A stretch of DNA of 64,000 nucleotides from Candidatus Kapaibacterium sp. (GCA_015490805.1 WFXC01000033.1:5347-69346), one strand, 5' to 3'. Numbered from the stretch's first letter, positions 9,384 through 29,888 are shown. Program-made: numbers and translations. The notes: generated by a model not told the origin, from the sequence alone.

Positions 9384-9827
9384 ATGCAGCAGCAAGCAAT
9401 TATGGAACAGCAATCACAACCATCGGACGTTATCACACTCCAGACTGCTCAATTTGGGACGTTGCAGATTCAACCCCATCACATTTTCCACTTTCCTCAG
9501 GGGATTATTGGGTTCGAGCATCTCACACGTTTTGTCTTAATCAGCGATGAGAAAACACAGCCAATCAAATGGCTGCTTGCTGTTGATGATCCTACCGTTG
9601 GTTTTCCTGTTGTCAACGTTTTGCTAGTACGTCCCGATTATCCTCTCGTTCGGAAGCTTAATTCTCGAAAAAGTGTTATATTAACAATTCTAACGCTGGG
9701 TAAAGACAAAAACATAACGGCAAACTTGCGGGCGCCGATTATTTTAGACATTGAACAACAAGAGGGAAAGCAGATTGTCTTAACCTCTGACGAGTTTTCG
9801 TTTGAATACGTTGTGCTGCAGCAATAA
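9384..9827 (+). CDS. fliW: Flagellar assembly factor FliW
   Basis: FG......IFHFPQGIIGFE, TANLRAPII, GKQIVL; directly upstream of csrA. Confidence 0.92.
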   Translation: MQQQAIMEQQSQPSDVITLQTAQFGTLQIQPHHIFHFPQGIIGFEHLTRFVLISDEKTQPIKWLLAVDDPTVGFPVVNVLLVRPDYPLVRKLNSRKSVILTILTLGKDKNITANLRAPIILDIEQQEGKQIVLTSDEFSFEYVVLQQ

Positions 9828-9842
9828 AGTCTTAGCATACGA

Positions 9843-10115: not shown

Positions 10116-10747
10116 TGGAATCTGCAACGCAACAACAATTTCCCATCTTAGTAGTGGATGATGATATCTGGATCCAGCGGATTTTGTCCAAAGTATTGAG
10201 TCACTTTGGATTTTATCCGCTGACCGCTTCCAATGGTTTTGATGGTGTGGCTTTAGCCATTGAACATCAACCAATGGCGATTTTCCTGGATCTTATGATG
10301 CCAGAACTATCAGGGCACTTAGTGCTGAAGCTACTCAAGCGTATCAAACTAACGCGTGATATTCCGGTCCTGGTGGTGACTGCACTTTCCGACACCGAAA
10401 ATCTGAGTTTGGCAATTAAAGAGGGAGCTATTGGCTTTGTGAGCAAACCCTTTACCCGGGCGACGATTTACGACAAATTGCTATCCATTTTTGGTTCTGA
10501 AACCTTAGAAGTCATCGCCAAACAAACCAAACTGCCACCGGCGCAGGAAACCACTGTTGACACAACAACATCCCAGCCTTCCTTTACCTCTTCTCCTGAA
10601 TCATCAGTTTCAGCAACACCGCCGGAACAACCACCGGCATATTCACAAACTGTTGTTGAGCGGTACAAAGAAGAAGAAGCACCTCCGGAAGAAGAACAAC
10701 TGGAAATTATCCGCAAGATCTTAGAGCAACATCGCGGAACGCAATAA
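10115..10747 (+). CDS. Response regulator: receiver domain plus low-complexity tail, no recognisable output domain
   Basis: ILVVDDD, IFLDLMMPELSG, VTA, SKPF, then a Ser/Thr/Pro/Glu-rich tail. Confidence 0.88.
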   Translation: MESATQQQFPILVVDDDIWIQRILSKVLSHFGFYPLTASNGFDGVALAIEHQPMAIFLDLMMPELSGHLVLKLLKRIKLTRDIPVLVVTALSDTENLSLAIKEGAIGFVSKPFTRATIYDKLLSIFGSETLEVIAKQTKLPPAQETTVDTTTSQPSFTSSPESSVSATPPEQPPAYSQTVVERYKEEEAPPEEEQLEIIRKILEQHRGTQ

Positions 10748-11605
10748 TTACCACCGTACTTTGCGTTGCGAACGATAGCGCAAGAAAATAGCAATTCCGT
10801 TCAGTCCCAACACCAAAACCAGAAGCACGATAATAGCAGCAGCAGCATTAATCACAAAGCCGTGCTGCGGGCGGGATACCCAGTTAAAGATCTGAATCGG
10901 CAGCACGGTAAATTCATCCATTGGCGACCGGGGAATAAAAGGAACATACGTTAACGCTCCAACAACGATCAGGGGTGCAGCTTCACCGATGGCACGTGCC
11001 AGGGCTAAAATAATACCCGTCAAGATATTGCCAAAAGCAGCAGGCAGCACCTGTTTCCAGATCGTCTGCCACTTCGTCGCACCCAACGCATACGCTGCTT
11101 CTCGAATCGAGGACGGAACAGCACGCAACGCTTCACGTGCTACTACAATGACCACTGGAAGTACCAGCAATGCTAAGGTCAAACTACCAGCGATCAAACT
11201 CTGTCCCATTTGTAGTGTCCGTACGAAAATTTCCAATCCCAGAATTCCATAGATGATGGAAGGAACACCTGCCAAGTTTGCAATGTTGATTTCCAGCACA
11301 TTTGCCAGCCACGACTTTTTCGCATATTCTTCCAGATAGATGGCGGCACTCACTCCCAGCGGAATGGCAAAGAAAGCAGTACCCAGAAAGATCCAGAGAC
11401 TTCCGACAATAGCCGGATAAATGCCTGCTTTCTCTGGAAACCTCGATGGAAAAGAAGTGAGAAAGTCCCACGAAAGTCGAGCAATGCCTAACTTGAAAAT
11501 GCTCACAATGAGTGCAACAAGAAACAACAACCCAATGAACGCCGCCGCCAGCCCAAGCATTCCCACCAGCCGGTCAAGGAGATATGCCCGCCACCGCTTA
11601 CTCAT
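10748..11605 (-). CDS. pstA: Phosphate ABC transporter permease PstA
   Basis: [43 protein letters not shown]; start at ATG 11605. Confidence 0.95.
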
Positions 11606-19197: not shown

Positions 19198-21432
19198 TTA
19201 CTGCATAGACATTTGCACCCTTCCCCGAACAGTCACGTAAACGTTCCGACCAGGCGCGGGAAGATCGTTCCAATCAGAAAACCGATGATACTGCTGATCG
19301 AAAACATTCGCAACGCCCAAAGCGACGTACATTTCTCGTAACATTTGCCAGCCTGCCTCCACATCCCATACCATATAACCAGGATCCGGGGTCTCCCCTG
19401 CCCACCGAGCAACTTGCCTGTTTGCTACAGCCATTTCTCCCTGTACTTCAATCCACCAGGGCTTAGGCTGATAGCGCACAACTGTTCGCAATGTCCACGG
19501 AGACATTGCAGGCAATGGCAGTCCATCGCTCCGCTGTCCTGTTTCTGCCTTGAGAATGCAACCAGTAGTGAGCCCTGACAGCACCTCAAACCAACCTGCA
19601 AGACTCAAGCCCAGGTTCCACGCTGTTCCTGCATTCCTATACTGTTTCACACCCTTGGATCCGATCGTCATTGGCGGTATATCAATTCGGGATGCAGCAA
19701 CGTATTGCATAAACCAGTTTCCATAGATCATAGCGACCACTGTTCCATTTTTTCGAGCATAGGAAACGTGTGCGTTCAGATACCACCGCTGCTCTGGTTG
19801 CAATCGGGGATTCCCAAGATAATCATATCCATCTTGTGACTGGAACAGATAAAAGCCGTACAACTCGCTTTGATGCAATAGGCGTTGCTGATAGAGCAGT
19901 TGCAATGAAGTCTCTACAGCTTCGAGAATTTTACCCTCCAGAGCAATGCCTCCGCTCCAGGCATACTGGAAACGCTCTGGCGAAAAATCCCCGACCAATC
20001 CCTGCAACACTGCGATTTCATCCGCTCGTTGCAACCGGGTTTGTGCCACTGAAATTTCTACGTGGGGAATGAACGTTCCCCAGCTAGCAATGGGCACGTA
20101 GGATTGTCCCACCACACTCCAGACAGAACGCGACATCTCGGGCCACGTTGGCATCCACATCGGCGTTGCATCCGGGGCATACATTACCATTTCAGCGTGC
20201 ACGTATTCTGACCGGTACTCGGTCGCAACCTTTGTCGGGATTCCGGCGATGGTTGAATGGAGGGTCAATTTACCACCAAGCACCCGGGTATGTCCCGGCA
20301 TATCCATATGAACAGGCACTTGGCGCTTCCAATCATCCATATAATGATCGACCCGGCTGCCAAAGACCTGGAAAACTGCTTCCCGCAACCAGGTCTGGTG
20401 GACAGGCTTGTACTGCAAAGCGAGATTTCCCAATCGCAATCGGTCGTACCGGGTATCCATTGGCAACGCTGCAAATCCAATATCATAACCGTCATCCCCG
20501 ATGAAAACGCCGGACAGTCTGAACTGAGGACTCAGTTGTGCAATACCGTGAATGCGGTAATTCCACTTGCGGAATCCTGAGGGATCGATCAATTCTCCCC
20601 CACCGGCGCGATAATTCGCCGCCCGGCGATAGGTTCCATCAACAATGAAACCCAGTGTCGGCGACTGATATTGCGACCGAACGTACGCTCGCACCTCGCG
20701 ATTGACACTCCCATACGACAGTTGCCCTGTCCACATCGTCTGCTTCGGTCCCATCCGTGGAGAATCTGGAATGAAATGGACCATAGCAAATTCCCCTCCA
20801 GACTGTGCAAACTGCACAGCAACATTTTGAAGCGCCTCTGGCTCAACATACGTATTGGCTGGATCCATATGATCCGTACAGGCTGGTAACACCGGTACAT
20901 CCGCAATGCGGAATTCATACCGCTTCATTCCCATTCCCTGAACCAGCGGTTCACCTGCCATTGCAGCTCGCCGCTGAATGGAAATCTGTGGCAGAAATGC
21001 CAGATATTGATCAATAGACCGAGGACTCAAACGAAGCAGGTTTTGCTCGTACTGCTCGCGGGCTGAGCGGTAGCTGCTGATTACTATGTTTTGCAATAAC
21101 AGCGGTTGACTCACCAGAGACACTGACACCCAAAGCGTATCTCCAGTGACCGTCACCTGCGATTGCCACGGACGGTATCCCAGTTTCCGCACAGCAAGCA
21201 AGAGTTGCGGTCGCCGGGGCGTGTAACGAACTATTAGCTTTCCATGGCTATCCGTCACCCCAACCGCAATAGAATCAACGGAACAAATGGCGCCGGGAAC
21301 CGGTCGTTGTGTCTCAACGTCCTGAACCTGCCACACAATGGAAATTTGCTGAGCCGATGTTGTAACTGATAGTACCACACTGAACACCGTTATTATCATC
21401 CCCACCTTTTGCATCATCCTTTCCCTCCGCAT
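19198..21432 (-). CDS. TonB-dependent receptor, copper-receptor (OprC/NosA)-like
   Basis: Signal peptide and N-terminal extension domain; plug ACTDHMDP (CxxxMD); Met/His-rich HMDMPGH, HAEMVMY, PMWMPTWPEM; GNPRLQPE; C-terminal PGRNVYV. Confidence 0.85.
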   Translation of the reverse strand: MRRERMMQKVGMIITVFSVVLSVTTSAQQISIVWQVQDVETQRPVPGAICSVDSIAVGVTDSHGKLIVRYTPRRPQLLLAVRKLGYRPWQSQVTVTGDTLWVSVSLVSQPLLLQNIVISSYRSAREQYEQNLLRLSPRSIDQYLAFLPQISIQRRAAMAGEPLVQGMGMKRYEFRIADVPVLPACTDHMDPANTYVEPEALQNVAVQFAQSGGEFAMVHFIPDSPRMGPKQTMWTGQLSYGSVNREVRAYVRSQYQSPTLGFIVDGTYRRAANYRAGGGELIDPSGFRKWNYRIHGIAQLSPQFRLSGVFIGDDGYDIGFAALPMDTRYDRLRLGNLALQYKPVHQTWLREAVFQVFGSRVDHYMDDWKRQVPVHMDMPGHTRVLGGKLTLHSTIAGIPTKVATEYRSEYVHAEMVMYAPDATPMWMPTWPEMSRSVWSVVGQSYVPIASWGTFIPHVEISVAQTRLQRADEIAVLQGLVGDFSPERFQYAWSGGIALEGKILEAVETSLQLLYQQRLLHQSELYGFYLFQSQDGYDYLGNPRLQPEQRWYLNAHVSYARKNGTVVAMIYGNWFMQYVAASRIDIPPMTIGSKGVKQYRNAGTAWNLGLSLAGWFEVLSGLTTGCILKAETGQRSDGLPLPAMSPWTLRTVVRYQPKPWWIEVQGEMAVANRQVARWAGETPDPGYMVWDVEAGWQMLREMYVALGVANVFDQQYHRFSDWNDLPAPGRNVYVTVRGRVQMSMQ

Positions 21433-21495
21433 TTGAAACTATCTGCCTTCTCCCGAGAACTGCCCTGCCAGGTACCGAGAGGGCAGCCTTAACTT

Positions 21496-22305
21496 TTAAA
21501 AGGTCACAGGAAAATCGACTTTGCCAATGTGAACGCCATCCCGATAAAATGCCGTGTGAATCACCCAATCGCCGGTCATTGTAAAGTTGACCTTGCCCTG
21601 ATACCGACCCTTCCGGATATGGACCGGATTCTGATTATTCGGCGATCCATGGCCCATCGAAGGCATCTCTGGCTCAATCTCAATGGATAAATCCGTAACA
21701 GGCTCAAAACGGTGCATCACCTTCCGATACACAAACAGATCGAAATCATTCAATCCTACCTCTGGATTGGATATATGTAATGCAGCGATAATTTTCGCAC
21801 TGTCCAGGGCAGAAATAAAAGCTTTGACCCGTTCGGCATAATACACTTCTATCGGTAAAGTCAGGTCCAGCGTATCCTGTCCAATGGTTCCAGTGAGATG
21901 GACTGTCCAATCGCCCATTTTATCGCCGCCCGGACTGTAAGTCGCCATTACCCATACGAGGTGCACCTGATACCCCTGGAGCTGAGCATCCCAGAATAGC
22001 GTATCGATGGGGGTGGAATGCGACATTCCACCTTGCATCGCCATTTCAGGCTCAAACTGCAAATTCGAAACCTGAACATATTGCCCGTTGTGCTTGACCG
22101 TGATTAACAATTCCGCATATCCAGCACGCAATGTATCGTGAGCATAGATGGCTACCTCACCCCACGCTGTCTGCTGGCGAGCCACCACCAGCGAAAAAGA
22201 TTGCCCCTGGTCATTCTGATCATCCGGTGTTGTGGGATTAGAGGTCTCGCACCCACTCTGGATCAACAACACAAAGATTGCCAGGAGGAAAATCGTATAT
22301 TTCAT
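21496..22305 (-). CDS. YtkA/FixH-like lipoprotein with two Met/His-rich repeats
   Basis: Lipobox IQSGC; PEMAMQGGMSHSTP...WVM...GDW and PEMPSMGHGSPNN...FTMTGDW. Confidence 0.8.
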   Translation of the reverse strand: MKYTIFLLAIFVLLIQSGCETSNPTTPDDQNDQGQSFSLVVARQQTAWGEVAIYAHDTLRAGYAELLITVKHNGQYVQVSNLQFEPEMAMQGGMSHSTPIDTLFWDAQLQGYQVHLVWVMATYSPGGDKMGDWTVHLTGTIGQDTLDLTLPIEVYYAERVKAFISALDSAKIIAALHISNPEVGLNDFDLFVYRKVMHRFEPVTDLSIEIEPEMPSMGHGSPNNQNPVHIRKGRYQGKVNFTMTGDWVIHTAFYRDGVHIGKVDFPVTF

Positions 22306-22394
22306 TGTTGGTTTCTCCAGATTTTGTGGAACTTTCTCTTACCATTTTAGAATTTTTGAGAATCCTCATCGTTAAGAATTCTGCTGCTACCGGC

Positions 22395-22520
22395 ACTTCA
22401 GGACAGAACACTGCTCCGCCCTGAAGTCCTGCATACTTACCTTCAGGCTCCCTTCTTCCAGCGCATCATTGCGCTGCCGCACTTTGTCAGTGCACTATAA
22501 AGGGCAGCACCCAAATGCTG
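22395..22520 (-). promoter_or_regulatory. Structured intergenic leader (four hairpins) upstream of the Cu-uptake genes
   Basis: 15-bp stem at 22395-22427 with three G-U pairs that form only in the minus-strand RNA; further stems at 22459-22476, 22479-22493, 22505-22520. Confidence 0.55.
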
Positions 22521-22563
22521 CTGAGAGTATCAGTGGATAATTTTGCTCTGGCAGTGAGTCTTT

Positions 22564-22938
22564 TTAGAAATTTGGAGGATGGTCAATTCCCGGGGGGTGT
22601 CCCTCAAGGAGGGCATATATTTCGGCAAACAACATCGCTACCACTATCTGCACAAGCGGTTGGAACGCCTTCAACCTTTCCACTATAGCGATGATCTGCT
22701 CCAGATTCTGGAGGAAATGGACAACGGTTCTCGACTGCGTATCCACAGGATCTGGCGGCTGCGTAATTTTCCGCACAAAACATTTGCCGTGGCAACTGGG
22801 ATCCTTAACAGTATTTACACAATAGGTCCGGGCAATCTGATCTTCCCACACCCAATAGGCAACCCATCCCAACGATGGCGCCAGTAAATACACCGCTACA
22901 TTCACTAAGATAGCACTATGGAGCAAGCGGCGTCCCAT
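22564..22938 (-). CDS. Small membrane-anchored Cys-motif protein with C-terminal HPP motifs (candidate regulatory upstream ORF)
   Basis: Hydrophobic N-terminus, YCVN...PSCHGKC, ends EGHPPGIDHPPNF; ATG immediately follows the nosY stop. Confidence 0.7.
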   Translation of the reverse strand: MGRRLLHSAILVNVAVYLLAPSLGWVAYWVWEDQIARTYCVNTVKDPSCHGKCFVRKITQPPDPVDTQSRTVVHFLQNLEQIIAIVERLKAFQPLVQIVVAMLFAEIYALLEGHPPGIDHPPNF

Positions 22939-23727
22939 TTAAAAATCCCGATGGGCAAATCGTTTCAATCCCACAAAAACAGGAATGCTGACCCACAACA
23001 ACAAGGCGCCTAAAGCCAGACTGATGCCCAATGATGTTCCGAAAAATTCCCGAAATACCGCCCCTGTATACCCCATCAATGCAGACACATCCAGTTGGAG
23101 CAACAAAGCAACCCGTCCCAGATCCACAGGATTCAAAAACATTGCAGCAATGAGCGGTTGTTCCAGTGGATAATCCCGAAAAACCGTTGCTAAGTAAAGC
23201 ACCACTGCATCATAGACAACGGTGAGCGCCAGCCACAGCAGCAATGCAAGGCTCATCCCCACCGTCCGCTCTTCAGCGAAAATAGCAAACATCATCCCCA
23301 GCGACAAAAAGATCAGGATCAGCGCTGTTCCGACAATAAACAACGTTCCAAAAGCGCCGGCATAGCCTGCCCAACTACCAAAGACAAGGAAGGGTAAAAG
23401 CACGCCCAGAACAAAAGACGCGACAAATGGGGCTACAATACCCAACCACATCCCTCCATACAGCTCTGATCGGTAGATCGGTTGAGTCAACATCAACTCA
23501 ATAAAGGAAGTGGCATTATACACATAAAACACCCCAAACAGCACGCTAAGGAGAGGAAGGAATATCAATGTGACGTTGAGCAAACTGACCAAAACCTTTG
23601 CCTCATTCTCTCCAAAATAAAACAATACAGCGGTCAGGAAGAAGAACAACGCAAAGACGACAAATACCCACCGAGTTCGCAAAACATTGAAAAATTGATA
23701 TTTGGCAATTTTCAACGTATTGCTCAT
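22939..23727 (-). CDS. nosY: ABC transporter permease NosY
   Basis: Multi-TM; FIELMLTQPI.R, NPVDLGR, ALMGYTGAVF; position in nos operon. Confidence 0.9.
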   Translation of the reverse strand: MSNTLKIAKYQFFNVLRTRWVFVVFALFFFLTAVLFYFGENEAKVLVSLLNVTLIFLPLLSVLFGVFYVYNATSFIELMLTQPIYRSELYGGMWLGIVAPFVASFVLGVLLPFLVFGSWAGYAGAFGTLFIVGTALILIFLSLGMMFAIFAEERTVGMSLALLLWLALTVVYDAVVLYLATVFRDYPLEQPLIAAMFLNPVDLGRVALLLQLDVSALMGYTGAVFREFFGTSLGISLALGALLLWVSIPVFVGLKRFAHRDF

Positions 23728-24440
23728 CCTTCTACGCCGCTATATTGCAACACTTCAGCAATTGCTTCTTCCAGATTTTTCGTCCCGGTACGATCGATCA
23801 ACACTTGTTTTGCTTCCTTGAACAATAATTTCCCATCCAGCAAGAAAATCACATCGTCGGCTAAAGCAGCAATCTCCGGTAGAATATGAGAAGTAAAAAT
23901 GATTGTTTTACCCTGTTGTTTTTCTTTTTGGATTTTCTTCTTCAAAATCAAACTAGCAACTGGATCCAGCCCCACCGTCGGTTCATCCAGCACATAAATT
24001 TGCGGTTGAAATAAGAACGCCAGATAGGCATTCAGCTTCTGGCGCGTTCCCCCGGACAATTCCTTGCTCTTTTTTGTTAATTCCCGGTCCAGGTGAAATT
24101 GCTCGAACAACTCTTCATCGTAATGCGTCACATCGGAGCGAATATCTTTCATCATTCGGATGATCTCCCCAACAGTAAGATGCTCCGGGAACTGAGCAAT
24201 TTGGGGCATATACCCTATTTGTTGCCGATACTCTGGATGTGCATTCACCCGATGATCGGCAAGAAGAATATCGCCTGAATCGGGATGGACCAATCCCAGT
24301 AAGCATTTCAACAATGTCGTCTTCCCCGATCCATTGGGTCCCAAAATTGCTGTAATCCGTCCCGCCTCAATTGAGACCGTGATATCTTTTAATGCGTGAA
24401 GCTGTCCATAGCGCTTCGATATGTTGAGAAACTGGATCAT
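23724..24440 (-). CDS. nosF: ABC transporter ATP-binding protein NosF
   Basis: GPNGSGKTT, IGYMPQ, LSGGTRQK, LDEPT.GLDP; between nosD and nosY. Confidence 0.9.
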   Translation of the reverse strand: MIQFLNISKRYGQLHALKDITVSIEAGRITAILGPNGSGKTTLLKCLLGLVHPDSGDILLADHRVNAHPEYRQQIGYMPQIAQFPEHLTVGEIIRMMKDIRSDVTHYDEELFEQFHLDRELTKKSKELSGGTRQKLNAYLAFLFQPQIYVLDEPTVGLDPVASLILKKKIQKEKQQGKTIIFTSHILPEIAALADDVIFLLDGKLLFKEAKQVLIDRTGTKNLEEAIAEVLQYSGVEG

Positions 24441-25691
24441 TCAGAACACCACTTTCTGCAACAATGGATACCGGTCCACTAATGTTTCAGGAGTTAAGAC
24501 GGGGAATACTTGCTCAGCGATTTCAAGCAGATCGATCAAGAAACCGCGAAGCAAAATAAGTAATGGGGGATTTTGCTGCACCAGCAATGAAAATAGGCGG
24601 ACTGGATGATATGGAACATCTCCGATACCATCCCCATCTAAGTCATATCCCTTGTACTGATCCCAGAAATTATATGCAAAACGATTAAAATTCTGCCGGC
24701 TATTGGTACTGACATCAAAGCTATTGCCGATAAACGAATTGTGGTGGATGTACAAACCTTCCGAATTTGCCATCACGATCATTGCCCACCCATTTTGCTG
24801 GAAGAGATTACTGTCAATTTCAATCCGGGAAGATCCCTCACTATGAATCCCTACAGTATTGCGAATAAATCGATTAAAGCGAATGCGACTATCGGAAATT
24901 TCTTTCAACAGCAATCCATACGACGAAGGTCCCCAATTATACGCAAAAACATTCCGTTCCATCAAGACTCGCCGGGTATACATTACAGCAACACCAGCAC
25001 CGTTTCGCCGGAAGGTATTCCACCGGTACTGGCAGGAATCGGAAAACATAAAGTGTAATCCATATCGCAGGTTTTGTTCACTGAGATTGTGTTCAATAAG
25101 AGAACTTTGCACAAACTCAAAATAAATTCCATCCCGATGTCCTCGGATACGATTATTCCGAATGATCATTCCCTTGCAATACCATAGGTGAATTCCATTG
25201 CCAGAAACCGCTTCTCGCACACTATGCGCAATCAGCGTGTTGTTCTGAATGATACAGAAAGCCGACTCTGCGGCATAGATTCCGAAGAAGTTATCCAGCA
25301 AAATGCAAGAATCCACAACACAATGTTGCACCTTCTCCAGCCGAATGGCAGCATTGTCCTGCATAAAACTCACCCCAGCACGCTGTACCACGATCTTTCG
25401 GATCACCACAGAGTCGGCTTCAACGACAAACACTTCTGTTTGCCCTGCGCCATCGACCACAGGATTACCTTGCCCAACGATCGTCAATCGCTTCTTTACG
25501 TGAATAGGACCTTCAGCGTAATGACCAGCCGTAATGAGGATCGTATCTCCGGCTGCCGCCGCTGCGATAGCAGCTTTGATACTGGAATACTCTTCACCTA
25601 CCACTAGCCGGGCAGCCTGTGCACTTTCTGGCGCTAACGCGATCAACAATGCTATGGAAAAAAGCCATCTCACCGTTGTTCCAACTTCCAT
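24441..25691 (-). CDS. nosD: Nitrous oxide reductase maturation protein NosD
   Basis: Beta-helix repeats, GNGIHLW, RDGIY, LRYGLHFMFS, YDLDGDGIGD.PY; start at ATG 25691. Confidence 0.95.
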   Translation of the reverse strand: MEVGTTVRWLFSIALLIALAPESAQAARLVVGEEYSSIKAAIAAAAAGDTILITAGHYAEGPIHVKKRLTIVGQGNPVVDGAGQTEVFVVEADSVVIRKIVVQRAGVSFMQDNAAIRLEKVQHCVVDSCILLDNFFGIYAAESAFCIIQNNTLIAHSVREAVSGNGIHLWYCKGMIIRNNRIRGHRDGIYFEFVQSSLIEHNLSEQNLRYGLHFMFSDSCQYRWNTFRRNGAGVAVMYTRRVLMERNVFAYNWGPSSYGLLLKEISDSRIRFNRFIRNTVGIHSEGSSRIEIDSNLFQQNGWAMIVMANSEGLYIHHNSFIGNSFDVSTNSRQNFNRFAYNFWDQYKGYDLDGDGIGDVPYHPVRLFSLLVQQNPPLLILLRGFLIDLLEIAEQVFPVLTPETLVDRYPLLQKVVF

Positions 25692-26146
25692 TGTTCTGCG
25701 ACCAATGCAACGACCTGGGGCCACTGGAGAATTTCCCCATCATATTGTTTTTGCAGTCGCAATGCCTGTGCTTCTGTCGATACCGCCAACAGCGACATTC
25801 CCATTGGACTTCGAATCTGCGGCGAATGGAGATAAAATGCACTTTCTGCTGGAACAAACTTATCAAGTTCCTCAAAATCCACTACCCACATTGATTGGAT
25901 CTGATCTTTTGGAATTTTGTTGGTATAAACAAACGCCGCCAGACATTCAATCGCATCAAAAGGATAAATTTTCCCTTTTGTGGTAATGAGCTCAGCCCCA
26001 AACTTGGGATCACTCACCACCATTGAACAATAGGCACATTGCTCCTGTCCCAACTGGAGCGGGCGGGGCTTATGAGCACCACAGCCAGCGAAAAGCAATG
26101 CCAAAATCACCAAGCTAAAACCATATAGCCTGAGTGCCCGCATCAT
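25670..26146 (-). CDS. nosL: Copper chaperone lipoprotein NosL
   Basis: Lipobox LFAGC, CAYCSM, FDAIEC, SPMG; start at ATG 26146. Confidence 0.93.
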   Translation of the reverse strand: MMRALRLYGFSLVILALLFAGCGAHKPRPLQLGQEQCAYCSMVVSDPKFGAELITTKGKIYPFDAIECLAAFVYTNKIPKDQIQSMWVVDFEELDKFVPAESAFYLHSPQIRSPMGMSLLAVSTEAQALRLQKQYDGEILQWPQVVALVAEQWKLEQR

Positions 26147-26150
26147 TGTC

Positions 26151-26807
26151 TCACGCCACTTTCGCTGTCGCTGCTGAACGCTGCGTTGGAAAATTCCGGG
26201 ATATCCCTGCCGTTGCCGCTGCACGCTTTCGATCGATAAGCAATGCGAGCACCCCAAGGAGTATACCAGCGATGATCAGATAAGTACCCCAATATGGCAG
26301 CGACGTAGCAGTAATATTGAGCAATTGTTTGGTGCCAAGCAGTGGCGGCTGGTAACTCATTCCCGGAATCTTGATGGGGGCGTTCGGATTCAAATTATGT
26401 CCGTAATCATACTCCCATTTCCAGAAATCGTAGATACCTAAAATCGCAGCAACCAGCGTCAAACCGATCCAGGTTGCTACCAACTTTCGATTGCCAACAA
26501 TTGCCGCTATGAGTCCCAGCACAACTAATGCCACAACAATCCAGGGCATAATATCAAATTCCGGAATTGCATGAGGATCAATTTTATCCATCCCGATATA
26601 GTGATTCAACGTGTTGATATTTTCCAGATCGTTCGGCTTTTCCCCCGTAATATGATTGACCCAGATATACATCCCCAATCCTTCAGGGTACTGCGGGGCA
26701 TCCAGGCTGATTTTCCAGATGGGCAATATGAATACTCCAAGGTATAACAATGCTCCAACAGCAACCAGAATTCGGCTTCCTATTCCCATTTTTTGTTGTC
26801 CTGCCAT
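26151..26807 (-). CDS. nosB: Clade II nos membrane protein (NosB-like)
   Basis: PIW.I.L.APQYPEGL, NTLNHYIGM, W.YDYGHNL.P.API, YQPPL.G.KQL.N; 4 TM; directly after nosZ. Confidence 0.88.
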   Translation of the reverse strand: MAGQQKMGIGSRILVAVGALLYLGVFILPIWKISLDAPQYPEGLGMYIWVNHITGEKPNDLENINTLNHYIGMDKIDPHAIPEFDIMPWIVVALVVLGLIAAIVGNRKLVATWIGLTLVAAILGIYDFWKWEYDYGHNLNPNAPIKIPGMSYQPPLLGTKQLLNITATSLPYWGTYLIIAGILLGVLALLIDRKRAAATAGISRNFPTQRSAATAKVA

Positions 26808-26846
26808 CGCTCTGTCCTTTCTTTCCATCCACATTCATACTCTCAG

Positions 26847-26891: not shown

Positions 26892-28868
26892 TTACTGCCC
26901 TGACTCGCCTTCCTTATAGGTCCCATACGAAATCTTGACACTGGCATTCCGCGGCGAGACCCGGATATATCCCTGCATTTCCTGGTGTAATGCAGAGCAG
27001 AAATCGGTACAATAGAACGGATAGACACCCGGTTTCTTTGGCTCCCACACCAGAGTCTTCGTTTGCCCTGGCATTACCAATATCTCCGCATTATTTGCTC
27101 CGATGATTGCAAATCCGTGTGGGATATCCCAATCCTGTTCCAGATTAGTCACGTGGAAATACACTTTATCGCCTACTTTGACTCCCTCGATATTATCAGG
27201 AGTAAAGTGGCTGCGGATAGCGGTCATATAAATATGGACTTCGTTTCCCTGCCGCTCAACACGGGCTTCCTTCTCACTCTTTGCCGCATATGGGTGTTGA
27301 TTTTCTTCCAGCTTAAAAATCTTTGCGGATCTTTTCATTAGGATTTCCGCTGGAATCGCCTGAGCATAATGAGGTTCACCCAGTGTTGGAAAGTCCAACA
27401 GCAGCTTCATCTTATCTCCACTAATGTCAATCAACTGTGCTGCGTGGCACAGCTCCGGTCCGGTAGGTAGATAGCGGTCTTTCGTAATTTTGTTTAATGC
27501 GATAACATATTTTCCCCAGGGCTTCCTACTATCACCACCAGGGATGCACAGATGACCAACTGAGTAATAAACTGGGATACGGTCCACGACTTCCCAGGTT
27601 CCCAGTTTCCACTTCACAATTTCAGAAGAAATAAACGCGGTTGTATAAGCGTATCCCTTCCCATCAAACTCAGTGTGCAGGGGTCCCAGTCCTGGATTTT
27701 CTACTTCACCCGCGATTATCGCTTCATACTTCAAAACAGGAATACCATCAACCTCTCCTTCGAACTCCTGATTCTCAATCGCCTTCAGCATCTTAGAAAA
27801 GGAGTGCACAGGAATCACGGTCGCTAACTTTCCACCGGCGACAATGTACTCGCCACTCGGATCCACGTCAACACCGTGTGGTGACTTTGGCGTGGGTAGG
27901 TAATAAATCAGTCCCGGGCAGTCCTTGGGATACAGAACCTTAACTTTGGTTCGCTTATGCGCTGTTGCTGTATGTGTCTTATCATCATACTCGTTGTTGT
28001 AGTATACAACCTCTTCCTCTACATACTTACCCTGCTTGAGGTACTCTTCTGCTTTCTTCCAATTCACTGCTGCAATAAAGTCTTTGTCTTTCCGCGAGGC
28101 GTTGATCTCCAGCAAGGAATACGCCTGCTCGGTATTATAGGACGTGAAGAAAACCCATCCGTGAGACGGTCCCTTTCCAGCATGCGCCAGGTCATAATCA
28201 TATCCCGGTACTCGAATCTGGAATGCCAAATCCATATCACCCGTTTCTGGATCAACGGAAATAAAGCTGATAGTAGCCCCAAAGTGCTTTTTGTACTCAG
28301 AAATCGGAACATCACGCTGGGGAATTGGCACTGCAAAACGGGTCGATGCAACCACGTACTCTGTGTTCTGTGTTACAAACGGTGAAGCATGATTTCCTGC
28401 TGAATTCGGCAACTCAATAATTTCCACAGTTTCAAAAGTCCGGAGATCGATTCGAGCGACCCGCGGCGTATTGTTAGCATTGATGAAAAGCCACCGTCCA
28501 TCTGGCACCCCATCGGTCTGAGAAAGTTCCGGGTGGTGCGAATCATCCCAGGGAACAAATCCGTGAGAAGTCATCAACATCGGTTTGGTTTCTTCGGAAT
28601 AACCATACCCATTCTCCGGATATTGCGAAAATACTGGGATGATCTTGAACAACCGACCGGAAGGCAATCCATGAACAGCAACTTGTCCACTAAACCCTCC
28701 TGACATAAACGCATAAAATTCATCGTATTGGCCAGGCGGCACATAGACCCGCGAAGCGACGTCACTGGAACTCTTCGTTACTTGCTGCTGCTGTGAACAA
28801 TAGCTAAGTCCACCAACCAGCGCGATGATAACGCCCAAACCCATCAGGATGCGGAAGGAACGTTTCAT
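26892..28868 (-). CDS. nosZ: Sec-dependent (clade II) nitrous-oxide reductase
   Basis: No twin-Arg signal; SGGFSGQ, DDSHH, GNH, KSPHG, GPLH, VGH, EPH (CuZ His); CuA HGF...YCTDFCSALHQEM. Confidence 0.98.
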   Translation of the reverse strand: MKRSFRILMGLGVIIALVGGLSYCSQQQQVTKSSSDVASRVYVPPGQYDEFYAFMSGGFSGQVAVHGLPSGRLFKIIPVFSQYPENGYGYSEETKPMLMTSHGFVPWDDSHHPELSQTDGVPDGRWLFINANNTPRVARIDLRTFETVEIIELPNSAGNHASPFVTQNTEYVVASTRFAVPIPQRDVPISEYKKHFGATISFISVDPETGDMDLAFQIRVPGYDYDLAHAGKGPSHGWVFFTSYNTEQAYSLLEINASRKDKDFIAAVNWKKAEEYLKQGKYVEEEVVYYNNEYDDKTHTATAHKRTKVKVLYPKDCPGLIYYLPTPKSPHGVDVDPSGEYIVAGGKLATVIPVHSFSKMLKAIENQEFEGEVDGIPVLKYEAIIAGEVENPGLGPLHTEFDGKGYAYTTAFISSEIVKWKLGTWEVVDRIPVYYSVGHLCIPGGDSRKPWGKYVIALNKITKDRYLPTGPELCHAAQLIDISGDKMKLLLDFPTLGEPHYAQAIPAEILMKRSAKIFKLEENQHPYAAKSEKEARVERQGNEVHIYMTAIRSHFTPDNIEGVKVGDKVYFHVTNLEQDWDIPHGFAIIGANNAEILVMPGQTKTLVWEPKKPGVYPFYCTDFCSALHQEMQGYIRVSPRNASVKISYGTYKEGESGQ

Positions 28869-28926: not shown

Positions 28927-29448
28927 TTATTTTTTCTGTTGATGTACCCATCGTAAATACTCTAGAACAGCCCGTGCATCTTCAACACTAAGATTCTGGA
29001 ATGTCATAACTGTAAGATACTCTGCTAACAACTTCTTGGCTACCGGATGCCGCTTGATCATCTCATCTGGATTCAGCATCATATTCATTACAAACTCCGG
29101 AGTTCGGTGCTCCAGCACATCTCGCAGTGGTGGTCCGACTCGCCGACTATCCAACTCGTGGCACGCACTGCACTTCATCTCAAAAATTTTCTTTCCTTTT
29201 TCTACTAGTTTAGGATCAATCTCTCCCAAGGTAAGCTTTTCTCTAATAGGACCAATACCGTGCTTCAATTCAAACTCGGACAATCCCTCTGAATTTGCTG
29301 CATCTGATAGGTCACTCTTTTGTGCGCCTTGCTGTACCATCTGAGATTTCGCTCCTCGCTCTCCTGCTGGCGTAGCATCGTTACTACATCCGCTCCACCA
29401 AAGCCCTCCAAGAAGCAACAGAACAATAAACACAACAAATCGACTCAT
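28927..29448 (-). CDS. Monoheme cytochrome c lipoprotein of the clade II nos cluster
   Basis: WSGC lipobox-like, CSACH, VGPPL, NMMLNP; ATG overlaps the rrf2 stop (TGATG). Confidence 0.9.
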   Translation of the reverse strand: MSRFVVFIVLLLLGGLWWSGCSNDATPAGERGAKSQMVQQGAQKSDLSDAANSEGLSEFELKHGIGPIREKLTLGEIDPKLVEKGKKIFEMKCSACHELDSRRVGPPLRDVLEHRTPEFVMNMMLNPDEMIKRHPVAKKLLAEYLTVMTFQNLSVEDARAVLEYLRWVHQQKK

Positions 29449-29888
29449 CAGATATTCTCCTCTTTTGTTTGAACTGCTCCACGTTTCCATTGTTTCGCTA
29501 TCTCTGCAATACTTGTTTTTTGAAACAACCTAATCAGTTGCTCGCGAATCTTCAAATACCGCTTGTGAAATGTGCATCTCTCAAACTCTTCACACTGCGG
29601 TAATCCCAGAATGCACTCTACAAACCGCTTATCACCCTCAAAAGCCTGAATAATATCGTAAAGAGAAATCTGCGTCGGCGGTTTCCGAAAACGCATACCG
29701 CCCTTAATCCCGCGAGAAGTATCTACGATCCCGCTGCGTACCAGGCGCTTCACAATTTTCGAAAGAAAATATACCGGTAATCCCAGCTCTGCCCCGATTT
29801 TACGGACTGGAAAGTATTGACTATTCTGCTTCTGACTTGCCATATATGCCAGCATCTGAATAGCATACAGCGTTGCTTTTGAGAACAT
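29448..29888 (-). CDS. Rrf2 family transcriptional regulator (probable Fe-S binding)
   Basis: MFSKATLYA, FLSKIV..L...GIV.TSRG..GG, CILGLPQCEEFERCTFH. Confidence 0.93.
   Translation of the reverse strand: MFSKATLYAIQMLAYMASQKQNSQYFPVRKIGAELGLPVYFLSKIVKRLVRSGIVDTSRGIKGGMRFRKPPTQISLYDIIQAFEGDKRFVECILGLPQCEEFERCTFHKRYLKIREQLIRLFQKTSIAEIAKQWKRGAVQTKEENI

What the first reader, a model, noticed from the sequence alone, without database searches (positions are those of the whole stretch)
19198..22938. Candidate copper-sensing arrest-peptide switch hard-wired to the end of a clade II nos operon
Seen: the 124-aa ORF at 22564-22938 starts on the base after the nosY stop. It has a TM helix, C40-x8-C49HGKC53, a linker and a terminal GHPPGIDHPPNF. 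It is followed by a 258-nt hairpin-rich gap, a Met/His-rich YtkA-like lipoprotein and a TonB receptor with a CxxxMD plug motif and Met tracts. Known: DUF2946-type upstream ORFs (Bordetella CruR, Rhodobacter CutF) use TM + Cys motif + C-terminal Pro-rich/RAPP segment to control downstream copper genes post-transcriptionally; OprC uses CxxxM for Cu; NosZ is a multicopper enzyme. Inference: a Bacteroidota-type analogue with HPP in place of RAPP that expresses Cu-import genes only when nos is transcribed AND periplasmic Cu is low, i.e. an AND gate.
Basis: partly seen in the sequence, partly recalled or inferred. Interest (0 to 1): 0.85.

Follow-up and report, generated by a model that had tools for sequence, protein, structure and literature searches.

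The report
Candidate copper-sensing leader peptide after nos
A small membrane-anchored gene at the end of a nitrous-oxide-reductase operon belongs to a widespread, unnamed Bacteroidota family that looks built to pause the ribosome and so switch on neighbouring copper-uptake genes, much like the known CruR and CutF copper sensors of Proteobacteria.

Summary
On the minus strand, a 124-aa ORF (22564-22938) starts on the base after the nosY stop. A 258-nt structured gap follows, then a YtkA-like lipoprotein and an OprC-like TonB receptor.

The ORF is a real gene of a large Bacteroidota family (151 of 401 sampled genomes) that matches no Pfam or NCBIfam model. In 63 members from 61 loci, C40, C49, G51, C53 and P121-P122 are invariant. 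The unconserved linker from the last Cys to PP is 62-74 residues (median 67). PP lies 2-7 residues before the stop in 62 of 63.

Downstream genes are TonB receptors, MbnP/MbnH, YtkA-TonB, PepSY and Sco, the repertoire found behind DUF2946 CruR. The family shows no detectable homology to DUF2946.

In about 40% of loci the ORF's 3' end is complementary to the next gene's initiation region (5.7 versus 1.9 expected pairs in swap controls).

Best reading (0.55): a cis-acting, co-translationally exported copper-sensing pause peptide. Stalling, copper binding, polarity and the nos "AND gate" are untested. The zero-base fusion to nosY was seen only in this genus.

The concept is published, and a 2023 survey of "CutF-like" proteins may already include this family. 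I rate it a new variant of a known kind.

The parts
22939..23727 (-). nosY (ABC-2 permease), last gene of the nosZ-?-nosL-nosD-nosF-nosY cluster. Its TAA stop directly abuts the small ORF's ATG.
   Evidence: PF12679 E=1.6e-9; junction TTTTAAATG; same junction in two congeneric MAGs L099 and L100
22564..22938 (-). 124-aa small ORF (P0001), the candidate copper-sensing leader or pause peptide. It is a member of an unmodelled Bacteroidota family.
   Evidence: no Pfam or NCBIfam family
22846..22914 (-). N-terminal hydrophobic segment (residues 9-31), preceded by MGRR. Probable N-in signal anchor.
   Evidence: sequence; AF2 helix 2-30 with pLDDT about 90 or more. Orientation is inferred from the positive-inside rule.
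22780..22821 (-). Three-Cys motif C40-x8-C49-H-G-K-C53, the candidate Cu(I) site.
   Evidence: C40, C49, G51 and C53 invariant in 63 of 63; motif lengths tabulated
22573..22602 (-). G113-HPPGIDHPP122: the conserved pre-stop motif G-[YF]-x3-[IV]-[FD]-[HRQ]-P-P. Here it carries an extra internal PP (P115-P116). This is the proposed ribosome pause site; NF and the stop follow.
   Evidence: P121 and P122 invariant; position counts; PP is 2-7 residues from the stop in 62 of 63 members
22306..22563 (-). 258-nt structured untranslated gap.
   Evidence: z = -2.95 for 22290-22600; 88% mean column identity with indels among three Kapaibacterium sequences, and the last ~60 nt nearly invariant
22568..22577 (-). 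5' arm of a candidate long-range helix (CUCCA.AUUU, covering codons P121-F124).
   Evidence: present in the MFE structure, but only 0.61 expected pairs in the ensemble. No covariation is available, because the bases are invariant in A6.
22315..22324 (-). 3' arm of that helix (AAAU.UGGAG), 10-19 nt upstream of the ytkA ATG. It includes an SD-like GGAG.
   Evidence: SD-like motifs occur upstream of 11 of 45 long ORFs of the window, against a 9% background.
22504..22521 (-). Terminator-like hairpin GCAGCA-loop-UGCUGC followed by CCUUUAUAG (weak U tract).
   Evidence: The stem is not conserved in L099 or L100, so its function is doubtful.
21496..22305 (-). YtkA/CtaK-like lipoprotein (269 aa) with two EPEM..M.H/G.S motifs. 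Candidate periplasmic Cu chaperone.
   Evidence: PF13115 at 56.3 bits, above the 25.9 cutoff; motifs. YtkA = CtaK is implicated in CuA assembly (PMC13344008, passages read).
19198..21432 (-). OprC/NosA-like TonB-dependent receptor (744 aa).
   Evidence: PF00593; best NCBIfam TIGR01778 TonB-copper, but 75 bits against a 472 cutoff; only OprC chains hit in the PDB
20866..20880 (-). C185-TDH-M189. It aligns with OprC C143...M147.
   Evidence: phmmer alignment to 6fok_A
20335..20349 (-). D-H363-Y-M365-D. It aligns with OprC H323-I-M325.
   Evidence: phmmer alignment to 6fok_A. The ligand identity of these OprC residues is recalled from the OprC paper, which I did not read here.

Best explanation
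The 124-aa ORF is a cis-acting regulatory leader. It works like the copper-sensing upstream ORFs CruR and CutF, but belongs to a different, unmodelled Bacteroidota family.

Proposed mechanism:
1. The peptide is inserted co-translationally through its N-terminal anchor.
2. The ribosome pauses at the conserved C-terminal [IV]-[FD]-[HRQ]-P-P, 2-7 codons before the stop.
3. At that moment the invariant three-Cys loop, 62-74 residues upstream, would lie at about the periplasmic exit of the translocon.
4. Whether the loop holds copper changes the pull on the nascent chain, and so the length of the pause.
5. A paused ribosome covers the 3' end of the ORF. This either keeps that end from pairing with the initiation region of the next gene, or shields the long untranslated gap from termination. 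The downstream copper-supply genes are then expressed.

Here the downstream genes are a YtkA/CtaK-like chaperone and an OprC/NosA-like receptor. In this genus the module is joined base-to-base to nosY, so it is probably transcribed with the nos maturation genes and supplies copper for NosZ.

Shown by the calls: the family, its invariant residues, the length ruler, the synteny, the RNA complementarity statistics and the OprC ligand alignment.

Inferred: pausing, copper binding, topology, polarity (I favour ON at low copper, about 60:40) and co-transcription with nos.
For: 1. Family and invariants.
- Profile A1 matches 151 of 401 sampled genomes of the phylum.
- In 63 members from 61 loci, C40, C49, G51, C53, P121 and P122 are invariant at 20% mean column identity.

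2. Ruler.
- The last Cys to PP is 62-74 residues, median 67, sd 2.6, across a linker without sequence conservation.
- The tail after PP is 2-7 residues in 62 of 63 members.
- DUF2946 shows the same logic: CXXC to RAPP spacing conserved within 1-2 residues, and RAPP three residues from the end (PMC9426467, section 9).

3. Conservation rises again just before PP: G at -8 (22/63), Y/F at -7 (28), I/V at -3 (45), F at -2 (42), H/R/Q at -1 (50). This is what is expected of residues sitting in the exit tunnel.

4. Position.
- A same-strand ORF of at least 150 aa starts within 700 nt downstream in 61 of 63 cases; the median gap is 104 nt.
- Forty upstream neighbours hit 101 different Pfam families with no recurrent one.

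5. Downstream genes.
- +1 genes (61 scanned): Plug 25, TonB barrel 21, MbnP 11, YtkA 11, OMP_b-brl_3 7, Phenol_MetA_deg 4, SCO1 1.
- +2 genes (40 scanned): TonB barrel 11, CCP_MauG 10, PepSY_TM 2, SCO1 2, AhpC-TSA 2.
- This is the repertoire reported behind CruR (PMC9426467, section 10).

6. RNA.
- I measured expected base pairs between the window [PP-9 .. stop+6] and the next gene's [-20..+6].
- The mean is 5.69 in 59 loci, against 1.57 (sd 0.25) in 12 shuffle sets and 1.92 (sd 0.18) in 8 cross-locus swap sets.
- 26 of 59 loci exceed all 8 swaps, against 6.6 expected. The non-conserved tail alone gives 4.16 against 1.02.

7. The receptor keeps the residues that align with OprC C143, M147, H323 and M325. 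YtkA/CtaK is implicated in CuA assembly (PMC13344008). NosZ is a copper enzyme.

8. The same nosY|ORF-gap-YtkA-receptor layout occurs in two other Kapaibacterium MAGs. One of them has DRPP instead of DHPP.

9. No fused longer form was found (weak evidence). AF2 gives no secondary structure for residues 91-124.
Against: - No experiment or expression data exist for any member.
- The motif lacks the Arg of RAPP/RGPP, which is the class with demonstrated arrest (PMC12992588, passages read). Plain PP pauses are normally resolved by EF-P.
- CutF's own proline motif was not a strong staller by itself (PMC9973294, section 8).
- For the window's own locus the arrest-site/initiation-region helix is weak: 0.61 expected pairs in the ensemble, although it is in one MFE structure. 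The gap is long (258 nt) and there is no covariation to test.
- About half of the family loci show no such helix: 31 of 59 have fewer than 4 expected pairs.
- Control junctions between other genes in the same loci also show a mild excess: 3.33 against swap-set means of 1.65-2.46, and 15 of 60 beat all 6 swaps against 8.6 expected. The family signal is therefore stronger, not unique.
- AF2 models helices 52-59 and 64-90 with pLDDT about 68-84. A small stable membrane protein is therefore not excluded.
- The conserved F-H before PP might serve the protein (His as a ligand). It might instead serve the RNA, since UUUCAU is the complement of AUGAAA.
- Start codons of downstream genes were chosen by a heuristic.
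- The loci are related to each other and were picked from a ranked list, one per genus. They are not a random sample.
Confidence: 0.55

Rival explanations
1. The ORF encodes a stable, single-pass membrane-anchored periplasmic copper or thiol protein. It works in trans with the neighbouring receptor, chaperone or MbnP, for example by relaying Cu(I) at the inner membrane. The conserved C-terminal F-H-P-P would then be a binding or ligand motif rather than a pause site.
For: - Three invariant Cys sit next to the membrane.
- His is the commonest residue before PP, in 33 of 63 members.
- AF2 gives a helical model with mean pLDDT 78.
- Co-location with copper-handling genes fits a partner as well as a regulator.
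Against: - The 62-74-residue linker has no sequence conservation but a fixed length.
- Residues 91-124 are modelled without secondary structure, and pTM is 0.45.
- PP always lies 2-7 residues from the stop in 62 of 63 members, and the ORF is always 5' of the cassette on the same strand.
- The ORF tail is complementary, locus by locus, to the next gene's initiation region. A trans-acting partner does not explain this.
- The downstream partners are heterogeneous (TonB receptor, MbnP, YtkA, MetA-type porin), which argues against one specific protein contact.
Confidence: 0.22
2. The ORF is a regulatory leader, but the pause is read out as in CruR. A paused ribosome shields the long untranslated gap from Rho-dependent (or other) transcription termination, rather than unmasking the initiation region. 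This may apply particularly to the window's own 258-nt gap.
For: - CruR acts this way with a 162-nt gap (PMC9426467 abstract; PMC9973294 discussion passage).
- The window's gap is long and its arrest-site/initiation-region helix is weak in the ensemble.
- 31 of 59 loci lack a predicted helix.
Against: - The gap is strongly structured (z = -2.95), which is not typical of a Rho loading site. That point rests on general knowledge.
- The one terminator-like hairpin is not conserved among congeners.
- Nothing here tests Rho.
Confidence: 0.15
3. The module senses something other than copper, such as periplasmic thiol-disulfide state or another thiophilic metal. The link to nos would then be incidental.
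For: - Cys-only motifs also respond to redox state.
- The CutF model itself invokes disulfide formation (bioRxiv 10.1101/2025.02.05.636593, discussion passages).
- CutF-like clusters are reported not to be all copper-specific (PMC9973294, section 11).
Against: - Downstream genes are overwhelmingly of copper-linked families: MbnP/MbnH, YtkA, SCO1, PepSY_TM and OprC-like receptors with conserved CxxxM/HxM.
- The module recurs next to nos clusters.
Confidence: 0.08

Closest known systems
CruR (Bp2923) of Bordetella pertussis, DUF2946/PF11162 (PMC9426467; arrest shown in vitro in PMC12992588)
   Same: - Small ORF with an N-terminal export signal or TM, a Cys metal motif, and an unconserved linker of conserved length.
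- A C-terminal xxPP a few residues before the stop.
- A long untranslated gap.
- It heads cassettes of TonB receptor, PepSY_TM, MbnPH-like, Sco and AhpC genes for copper acquisition.
   Different: - No detectable sequence homology: 0 of 63 hit PF11162, and hhalign probability is 0.8%.
- The motif is Cx8-10CxGxC placed directly after the TM, instead of CXXC.
- The C-terminal motif is [FD][HRQ]PP instead of RAPP.
- The ruler is about 67 residues instead of 45.
- Here the ORF is not first in the operon but abuts nosY.
- The Rho-dependent read-out of CruR is not tested here.
CutF of Rhodobacter capsulatus and the 'CutF-like proteins' survey (PMC9973294; bioRxiv 10.1101/2025.02.05.636593)
   Same: - A co-translationally exported copper sensor whose C-terminal proline motif pauses the ribosome. 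This melts an mRNA structure that masks the next gene's initiation site.
- The window ORF meets the survey's operational filters: under 150 aa, PP within the last 15 residues, and a same-strand downstream gene within 1000 nt. For the fourth filter, the N-terminal signal, I saw an N-terminal hydrophobic TM segment but ran no signal-peptide predictor.
- The survey reports many Bacteroidota members, TonB-like neighbours and some nos links.
   Different: - CutF controls a detoxifying multicopper oxidase and is ON at high copper. Here uptake and assembly genes follow, so the opposite polarity is expected.
- CutF has CxxxC and PPP.
- The nos-linked CutF-like genes described there overlap nosZ or nosR at their 5' side. 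They do not follow nosY.
- Whether this exact family is in their list D or SSN clusters cannot be seen, because the supplements are closed.
RAPP/RGPP arrest peptides and monitoring substrates (SecM, ApdA/ApdP and others; PMC12992588, and bioRxiv 10.1101/2023.09.02.556018 seen in the listing only)
   Same: C-terminal Pro-Pro pause site near the stop, an upstream export signal, release proposed to depend on pulling force, and regulation of the next gene.
   Different: - The defining Arg at -2 and Ala/Gly at -1 are absent. Here -2 is F in 42 and D in 7 of 63; -1 is H, R or Q.
- That survey reports that RAPP/RGPP uORFs of copper-related genes were not found in Bacteroidota (passage read).
OprC of Pseudomonas aeruginosa / NosA of P. 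stutzeri (PDB 6fok; NosA known only from a reference title in PMC12914433)
   Same: TonB-dependent copper receptor. The CxxxM and HxM positions align. NosA is an outer-membrane protein required for copper-containing N2O reductase.
   Different: Only about 42 bits to OprC. The TIGR01778 score of 75 is far below its 472 cutoff. An N-terminal CarboxypepD_reg-like extension, as also seen in 15 of the 61 other family-locus +1 genes, is present weakly (E = 0.0027, below the cutoff).

Membership tests
DUF2946 (PF11162; CruR/CutF family) | Match to the Pfam model | tested here: not met
   P0001 has no hit even at E <= 10. 0 of 63 members hit at E <= 0.1. There is no match in the whole genome G000. The PF11162 matches found in the phylum (75 of 401 genomes at E <= 0.1, 4 over the cutoff) lie at other places.
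DUF2946 (PF11162; CruR/CutF family) | Profile-profile similarity to bona fide DUF2946-like proteins | tested here: not met
   hhalign of A5 (63 sequences) against A7 (9 Bacteroidota DUF2946-like sequences): probability 0.8%, with only the PP dipeptide aligned.
DUF2946 (PF11162; CruR/CutF family) | CXXC / CxxxC metal motif | tested here: not met
   The motif here is C-x(8-10)-C-x-G-x-C. Its total length is 15 residues in 53 of 63 members.
DUF2946 (PF11162; CruR/CutF family) | C-terminal RAPP or proline-rich motif a few residues from the end | tested here: inconclusive
   PP is invariant and lies 2-7 residues from the stop in 62 of 63 members. However, R-A is replaced by [FD]-[HRQ].
DUF2946 (PF11162; CruR/CutF family) | Conserved spacing between the metal motif and the PP motif | tested here: met
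   62-74 residues, median 67, sd 2.6. The value differs from the 45 residues reported for CruR (PMC9426467, section 9).
DUF2946 (PF11162; CruR/CutF family) | Precedes copper-related genes (TonB receptor, PepSY_TM, MbnPH, Sco, ...) on the same strand | tested here: met
DUF2946 (PF11162; CruR/CutF family) | Copper-dependent translation arrest controlling the downstream gene | not testable with these tools
   This needs toeprinting and reporter assays. No RNA run was listed.
'CutF-like protein' as operationally filtered in PMC9973294 | [quoted passage not shown] | tested here: met
   124 aa; PP is 2 residues from the end; N-terminal TM at residues 9-31 (no signal-peptide predictor was run); YtkA gene 258 nt downstream. 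Retrieval by their jackhmmer step could not be tested.
RAPP/RGPP arrest peptides | Arg-Ala/Gly-Pro-Pro at the arrest site | tested here: not met
   D-H-P-P here. Across the family, -2 is F in 42 and D in 7 of 63; -1 is H in 33, R in 9, Q in 8 and P in 8 of 63.
YtkA/CtaK-like (PF13115) | Pfam match above the gathering score | tested here: met
   56.3 bits against a 25.9 cutoff.
OprC-type TonB-dependent copper receptor (TIGR01778) | Equivalog score above the cutoff | tested here: not met
   75.3 bits against a 472.45 cutoff.
OprC-type TonB-dependent copper receptor (TIGR01778) | CxxxM and HxM copper-ligand positions | tested here: met
   C185/M189 and H363/M365 align with OprC C143/M147 and H323/M325. 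The ligand role of those OprC residues is recalled, not read here.
Clade II (Sec-type) nos cluster | NosZ without a twin-arginine signal; nosL, nosD, nosF and nosY present | tested here: met
   The NosZ N-terminus MKRSFRILMGLGV... has no RR motif. No phylogenetic clade assignment was made.

The most novel reading that the evidence does not exclude
This is an independent family of metal-sensing ribosome-pause peptides, not detectably related to DUF2946. It is found in about 38% of sampled Bacteroidota genomes. It uses a non-RAPP [IV]F[HRQ]PP pause site and a ~67-residue molecular ruler. The ruler places a three-Cys Cu(I) loop at the translocon exit at the moment the ribosome reaches PP. Copper occupancy is thereby turned into mechanical pull, and then into unmasking of the next gene's initiation region, including in lineages that do not rely on Shine-Dalgarno pairing. 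In Kapaibacterium the switch is chained base-to-base to nosY. Copper import and CuA-type chaperoning would then be produced only when the nos genes are being expressed and copper is short.
Probability: 0.33. Interest if true: 0.8.

Novelty: new variant of a known kind. Interest (0 to 1): 0.6.

Why it matters
NosZ is the only known biological sink for N2O, and its activity is limited by copper supply. How non-proteobacterial (clade II) N2O reducers obtain and ration copper is poorly known.

If this module works as proposed, it would show three things:
- Nascent-chain copper sensing is not confined to DUF2946 proteins. It would have arisen in, or diverged beyond recognition into, a second large family.
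- There would be a new pause motif and a sharply defined length ruler, both open to biophysical tests of force-sensitive arrest.
- There would be a direct genetic link between nos expression and copper uptake.

It would also give a name and a testable function to hundreds of 'hypothetical proteins' of Bacteroidota. All 120 listed relatives carry no Pfam domain, and every source name given is 'hypothetical protein'.

Tried and rejected
- Known-family assignment. Pfam and NCBIfam scans of P0001, of 4 distant relatives and of all 63 members gave only noise. My recollection that an NCBIfam small-protein family might fit was not borne out.
- Homology to DUF2946 is rejected at the sensitivity available. 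The protein atlas gave only unnamed Bacteroidota and Chlorobiota clusters at 0.95. DUF6769 and DUF6660 clusters scored 0.91-0.92 with few shared features, so they are leads only.
- Fused or longer forms: none among the 8000 scored candidates (weak evidence).
- Structure: the AF2 model has mean pLDDT 78.3 and pTM 0.45, and is helical with a coil tail. I ran no fold search, because a TM helix plus short helices would give meaningless matches.
- Promoter or terminator in the gap. The sigma-70-type scan found no promoter-like site in 22306-22563 on the minus strand. One weak site (9 of 12) lies inside the ORF at 22795-22766. The total is 2 sites against 3.3 expected. The scan does not cover Bacteroidota-type promoters. 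One terminator-like hairpin (22521-22504) is not conserved in congeners.
- Expression data: no RNA holder was listed for window:21300-24000.
- Covariation in the window's gap: the three available sequences are too similar (88% mean column identity) and the candidate helix arms are invariant.
- Supplements of PMC9973294 (Fig. S6 logos, File S1) and of PMC9426467 (Table S1) could not be seen. They may show that this family is already in the 'CutF-like' list.
- Literature searches that found no description of this family's motif:
  - (CruR, copper, upstream open reading frame);
  - (DUF2946, Bacteroidota, Bacteroidetes, Flavobacterium, MbnP);
  - (CutF-like, CruR, DUF2946, CutF);
  - in-text searches.

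Full report
**What is there.** On the minus strand the window carries this gene order:
- an Rrf2-type regulator (29448-29888);
- a c-type cytochrome (28927-29490);
- NosZ (26892-28868);
- a 227-aa ORF without a family (26151-26834);
- NosL (25670-26257);
- NosD (24441-25724);
- NosF (23724-24440);
- NosY (22939-23727);
- the 124-aa ORF of the finding (22564-22938);
- a 258-nt gap;
- a YtkA-like lipoprotein (21496-22305);
- a TonB-dependent receptor (19198-21432).

The junction reads TTT TAA ATG, so the small ORF starts on the base after the nosY stop. The NosZ N-terminus has no twin-arginine motif, which fits a Sec-type (clade II) enzyme.

**The organism.** Two close relatives of the ORF (94% and 92% identity) lie in MAGs titled Candidatus Kapaibacterium sp., phylum Bacteroidota. 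Both have the same layout:
- nosY stop directly followed by the ORF's ATG;
- a gap of 266-271 nt;
- a 269-aa YtkA-like gene;
- a 744-746-aa receptor.

One of them encodes DRPP instead of DHPP.

**The ORF is a member of a large unnamed family.**
- A single-sequence search of 1.84 billion representatives gave 29 hits at E <= 1e-3, all 102-142 aa.
- A profile of these matched 151 of 401 sampled genomes of the phylum, often 2-3 times per genome.
- A profile search of the 5.8-billion-protein collection gave 512 proteins at E <= 1e-5. All 120 listed have no precomputed Pfam domain, and every name a source gives is 'hypothetical protein', from Bacteroidota genera.
- None of 63 members hits a Pfam or NCBIfam model beyond noise.

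**Anatomy of the family.** I fetched 60 loci, about one per genus, chosen from the ranked list without regard to context. With the window they hold 63 members.
- In their alignment, C40, C49, G51, C53, P121 and P122 are invariant, while mean column identity is 20%.
- The consensus runs as follows: an N-terminal basic residue or two, then a hydrophobic helix, then ...Y..N...IA..LC.NK..P.L.C.GKC.L.K. A linker with no conserved residue follows, and the sequence ends G-[YF]-x3-[IV]-[FD]-[HRQ]-P-P plus 2-7 residues.
- The distance from the last Cys to PP is 62-74 residues (median 67, sd 2.6).
- The tail after PP is 2, 3 or 4 residues in 54 of 63 members and 2-7 in 62 of 63. One member has 17.
- The His of 'HPP' is the commonest residue but is not invariant: H 33, R 9, Q 8, P 8, K 3.
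- AF2 on this alignment models helices 2-30, 32-39, 52-59 and 64-90. Residues 91-124 have no secondary structure. Mean pLDDT is 78.3 and pTM 0.45.
- No longer fused form was found (weak evidence).

**Neighbours.**
- A same-strand ORF of at least 150 aa begins within 700 nt downstream in 61 of 63 cases. The median gap is 104 nt.
- Of these 61 +1 genes: Plug 25, TonB barrel 21, MbnP 11, YtkA 11, OMP_b-brl_3 7, Phenol_MetA_deg 4, SCO1 1.
- Of 40 +2 genes: TonB barrel 11, CCP_MauG (MbnH-like) 10, PepSY_TM 2, SCO1 2, AhpC-TSA 2.
- The window's YtkA-like protein has relatives in 12 of 61 loci and its receptor in 23 of 61, counting the window itself.
- Forty upstream neighbours hit 101 different families with none recurrent. 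The ORF therefore normally opens a cassette, and the base-to-base fusion to nosY was seen only in this genus.
- Even so, nos clusters lie within 7 kb on the same strand in two other sampled loci from other families (L073, L069).
- I compared by eye the listed coordinates of the family and of NosZ (135 of 401 genomes). A family ORF lies within about 12 kb of nosZ on the same contig in 8 genomes: G000, G083, G397, G286, G090, G158, G265 and G208. This is a lower bound, because 40 family matches were not listed.

**The copper link.**
- The only PDB sequences the receptor hits are OprC chains. Its C185...M189 and H363-x-M365 align with OprC C143...M147 and H323-x-M325. That these are the OprC copper ligands is my recollection of the OprC paper.
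- The receptor's best NCBIfam model is 'TonB-dependent copper receptor', though far below the cutoff.
- YtkA is CtaK, implicated with Sco in CuA-centre assembly in Bacillus subtilis (PMC13344008, passages read). NosZ carries a CuA centre (general knowledge).
- NosA of P. stutzeri, an outer-membrane protein required for copper-containing N2O reductase, is a precedent. I saw it only as a reference title in PMC12914433.

**Comparison with the known systems.**
- CruR of Bordetella (DUF2946) has an export signal, a CXXC motif, a 45-residue spacing conserved to within 1-2 residues, and RAPP three residues from the end. A long gap follows it. It heads operons with TonB receptors, PepSY_TM, Sco, PCuAC, MbnPH-like and AhpC genes. 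Copper relieves arrest and allows Rho termination (PMC9426467: abstract, sections 9 and 10). Its arrest was later shown in vitro, with the two Pro codons in the P and A sites (PMC12992588, passages).
- CutF of Rhodobacter stalls when copper binds the exported nascent chain. This melts a stem-loop that masks the cutO ribosome-binding site (PMC9973294 abstract and discussion passages; bioRxiv 10.1101/2025.02.05.636593 abstract and discussion passages).
- The present family has the same architecture and the same kind of neighbours. It fails every sequence test for membership:
  - no PF11162 match in 63 of 63 members, or in the genome;
  - the PF11162-like ORFs of Bacteroidota (ending SRAPP or HRGPP, with His-rich and DCxxC motifs) lie at other loci;
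  - hhalign between the two sets gives 0.8% probability, with only PP aligned.
- It therefore works like a CruR/CutF, as far as sequence can tell, but is not a recognisable member.

**An RNA clue.** For 59 loci with gaps of 25-350 nt, I computed base-pair probabilities over the stretch from 30 nt before PP to 30 nt into the next gene.
- I counted expected pairs between [PP-9 .. stop+6] and the next gene's [-20..+6]. They average 5.69.
- Shuffling the first window gives 1.57 (sd of 12 set means 0.25). 24 of 59 loci beat all 12 shuffles, against 4.5 expected.
- Swapping in the same window from another family member keeps FHPP and composition. It gives 1.92 (sd 0.18). 26 of 59 loci beat all 8 swaps, against 6.6 expected.
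- The non-conserved tail plus stop alone gives 4.16 against 1.02. The 9 nt before PP are not locus-specific (1.18 against 0.70; 7 of 59 against 6.6 expected).
- The position profile shows two arms. The codons just before PP (often UUUCAU, the complement of AUGAAA) pair with the start codon. The tail and stop pair with -20..-8. The PP codons themselves are left open.
- A ribosome held on PP would cover both arms.
- Controls temper this. Other same-strand junctions in the same loci also show a mild excess: 3.33 against 1.65-2.46, with 15 of 60 beating all 6 swaps against 8.6 expected. Nine of 60 have at least 8 pairs, against 21 of 59 for the family.
- About half of the family loci show nothing.
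- For the window itself, a 9-bp helix (22568-22577 with 22315-22324, including an SD-like GGAG) appears in one MFE structure. It carries only 0.61 expected pairs in the ensemble.
- SD-like motifs precede 11 of 45 long ORFs of the window, against a 9% background. An SD may therefore matter in this lineage.

**Most likely mechanism, and what is not shown.** I commit to a cis-acting, co-translationally inserted copper-sensing pause peptide (confidence 0.55).
- Shown: the family, the invariant residues, the ruler, the position, the neighbours, the complementarity statistics and the OprC ligand alignment.
- Inferred:
  - that the ribosome pauses at PP;
  - that the three Cys bind copper;
  - N-in/C-out topology;
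  - that a 67-residue ruler puts the Cys loop at the translocon exit (tunnel plus channel lengths from general knowledge);
  - that low copper means ON (by analogy with CruR and with the uptake nature of the cargo);
  - that the module is co-transcribed with nosDFY.
- The 'AND gate' is a reasonable reading of the zero-base junction conserved in three genomes. No expression data could be found to test it.

**Rivals.**
- A stable membrane copper or thiol protein acting in trans (0.22).
- The same leader read out through transcription termination, as for CruR (0.15).
- A ligand other than copper (0.08).

**Novelty.** The principle is published.
- A 2023 survey of 'CutF-like' proteins used operational filters that this ORF meets. 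It reports 5,334 proteins, 19% of them from Bacteroidota (40% after normalisation). TonB-like genes are the second commonest neighbour, and some members overlap nosZ or nosR (PMC9973294, sections 10-12).
- Its main text does not describe this family's motif. The supplements that would settle the overlap are closed.
- A 2025 survey restricted to RAPP/RGPP reports no such uORFs before copper-related genes in Bacteroidota (PMC12992588, passage).
- What appears to be new here:
  - the delineation of this family as separate from DUF2946;
  - its CxGKC and [FD][HRQ]PP motifs;
  - the 67-residue ruler;
  - the MbnPH, YtkA-TonB and MetA-porin cargo;
  - the tail/initiation-region complementarity;
  - the fusion to nosY.
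- I rate it a new variant of a known kind, with interest 0.6.

Noticed in passing
L101-L110 (e.g. L101:1390-1782, L104:1492-1824, L109:1489-1848): Bacteroidota also carry a separate set of small ORFs that weakly match DUF2946. They have His-rich stretches, a DCxxC motif and C-termini SRAPP or HRGPP plus 2-5 residues. They lie at loci other than those of the CxGKC...FHPP family.
   Followed up: partly
L046, L051, L067, L068, L079, L087, L089, L094 (+1 genes after the family ORF; starts listed): Eight downstream genes encode about 300-370-aa proteins. Their signal peptide is followed at once by a Cys-rich motif (ACDFCGC or variants such as QCACCAG in L094). 4 of the 61 +1 genes hit PF13557 (Phenol_MetA_deg), an outer-membrane channel family. 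This may be a Cys-lined copper porin class.
   Followed up: no
L054:6998-7366 and 9475-9837; L063:6989-7372 and 10433-10801: Two family members lie within 2-4 kb of each other, each before its own cassette. The coordinates suggest the same in G299, G242 and G067.
   Followed up: no
window 26151-26834 (-): A 227-aa ORF between nosZ and nosL has no Pfam family. In L073 and L069 one ORF of about 346 aa matches both this protein and NosL, so the two are fused there.
   Followed up: partly
window 29448-29888 (-): An Rrf2-family regulator (TIGR00738, E = 1.7e-28; weaker NsrR, IscR and RirA matches) sits at the head of the nos cluster, just upstream of the cytochrome c gene.
   Followed up: no
window 22766-22795 (-): A weak sigma-70-like site (TTGCCA-18-GAAAAT, 9 of 12) lies inside the small ORF. 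The region's count of such sites is at chance level (2 found, 3.3 expected).
   Followed up: no
G090:C23:531384-531749 versus 532442-534328 (coordinates): In this genome a family ORF lies only about 0.7 kb from nosZ on the opposite strand (divergent), a different kind of nos linkage.
   Followed up: no
family-wide, codons -2/-1 before PP: The frequent F-H before PP is encoded by UUUCAU in the loci printed. This is the exact complement of AUGAAA (Met-Lys), the usual start of the exported downstream proteins. The protein-level conservation of F-H could therefore partly reflect RNA pairing.
   Followed up: partly
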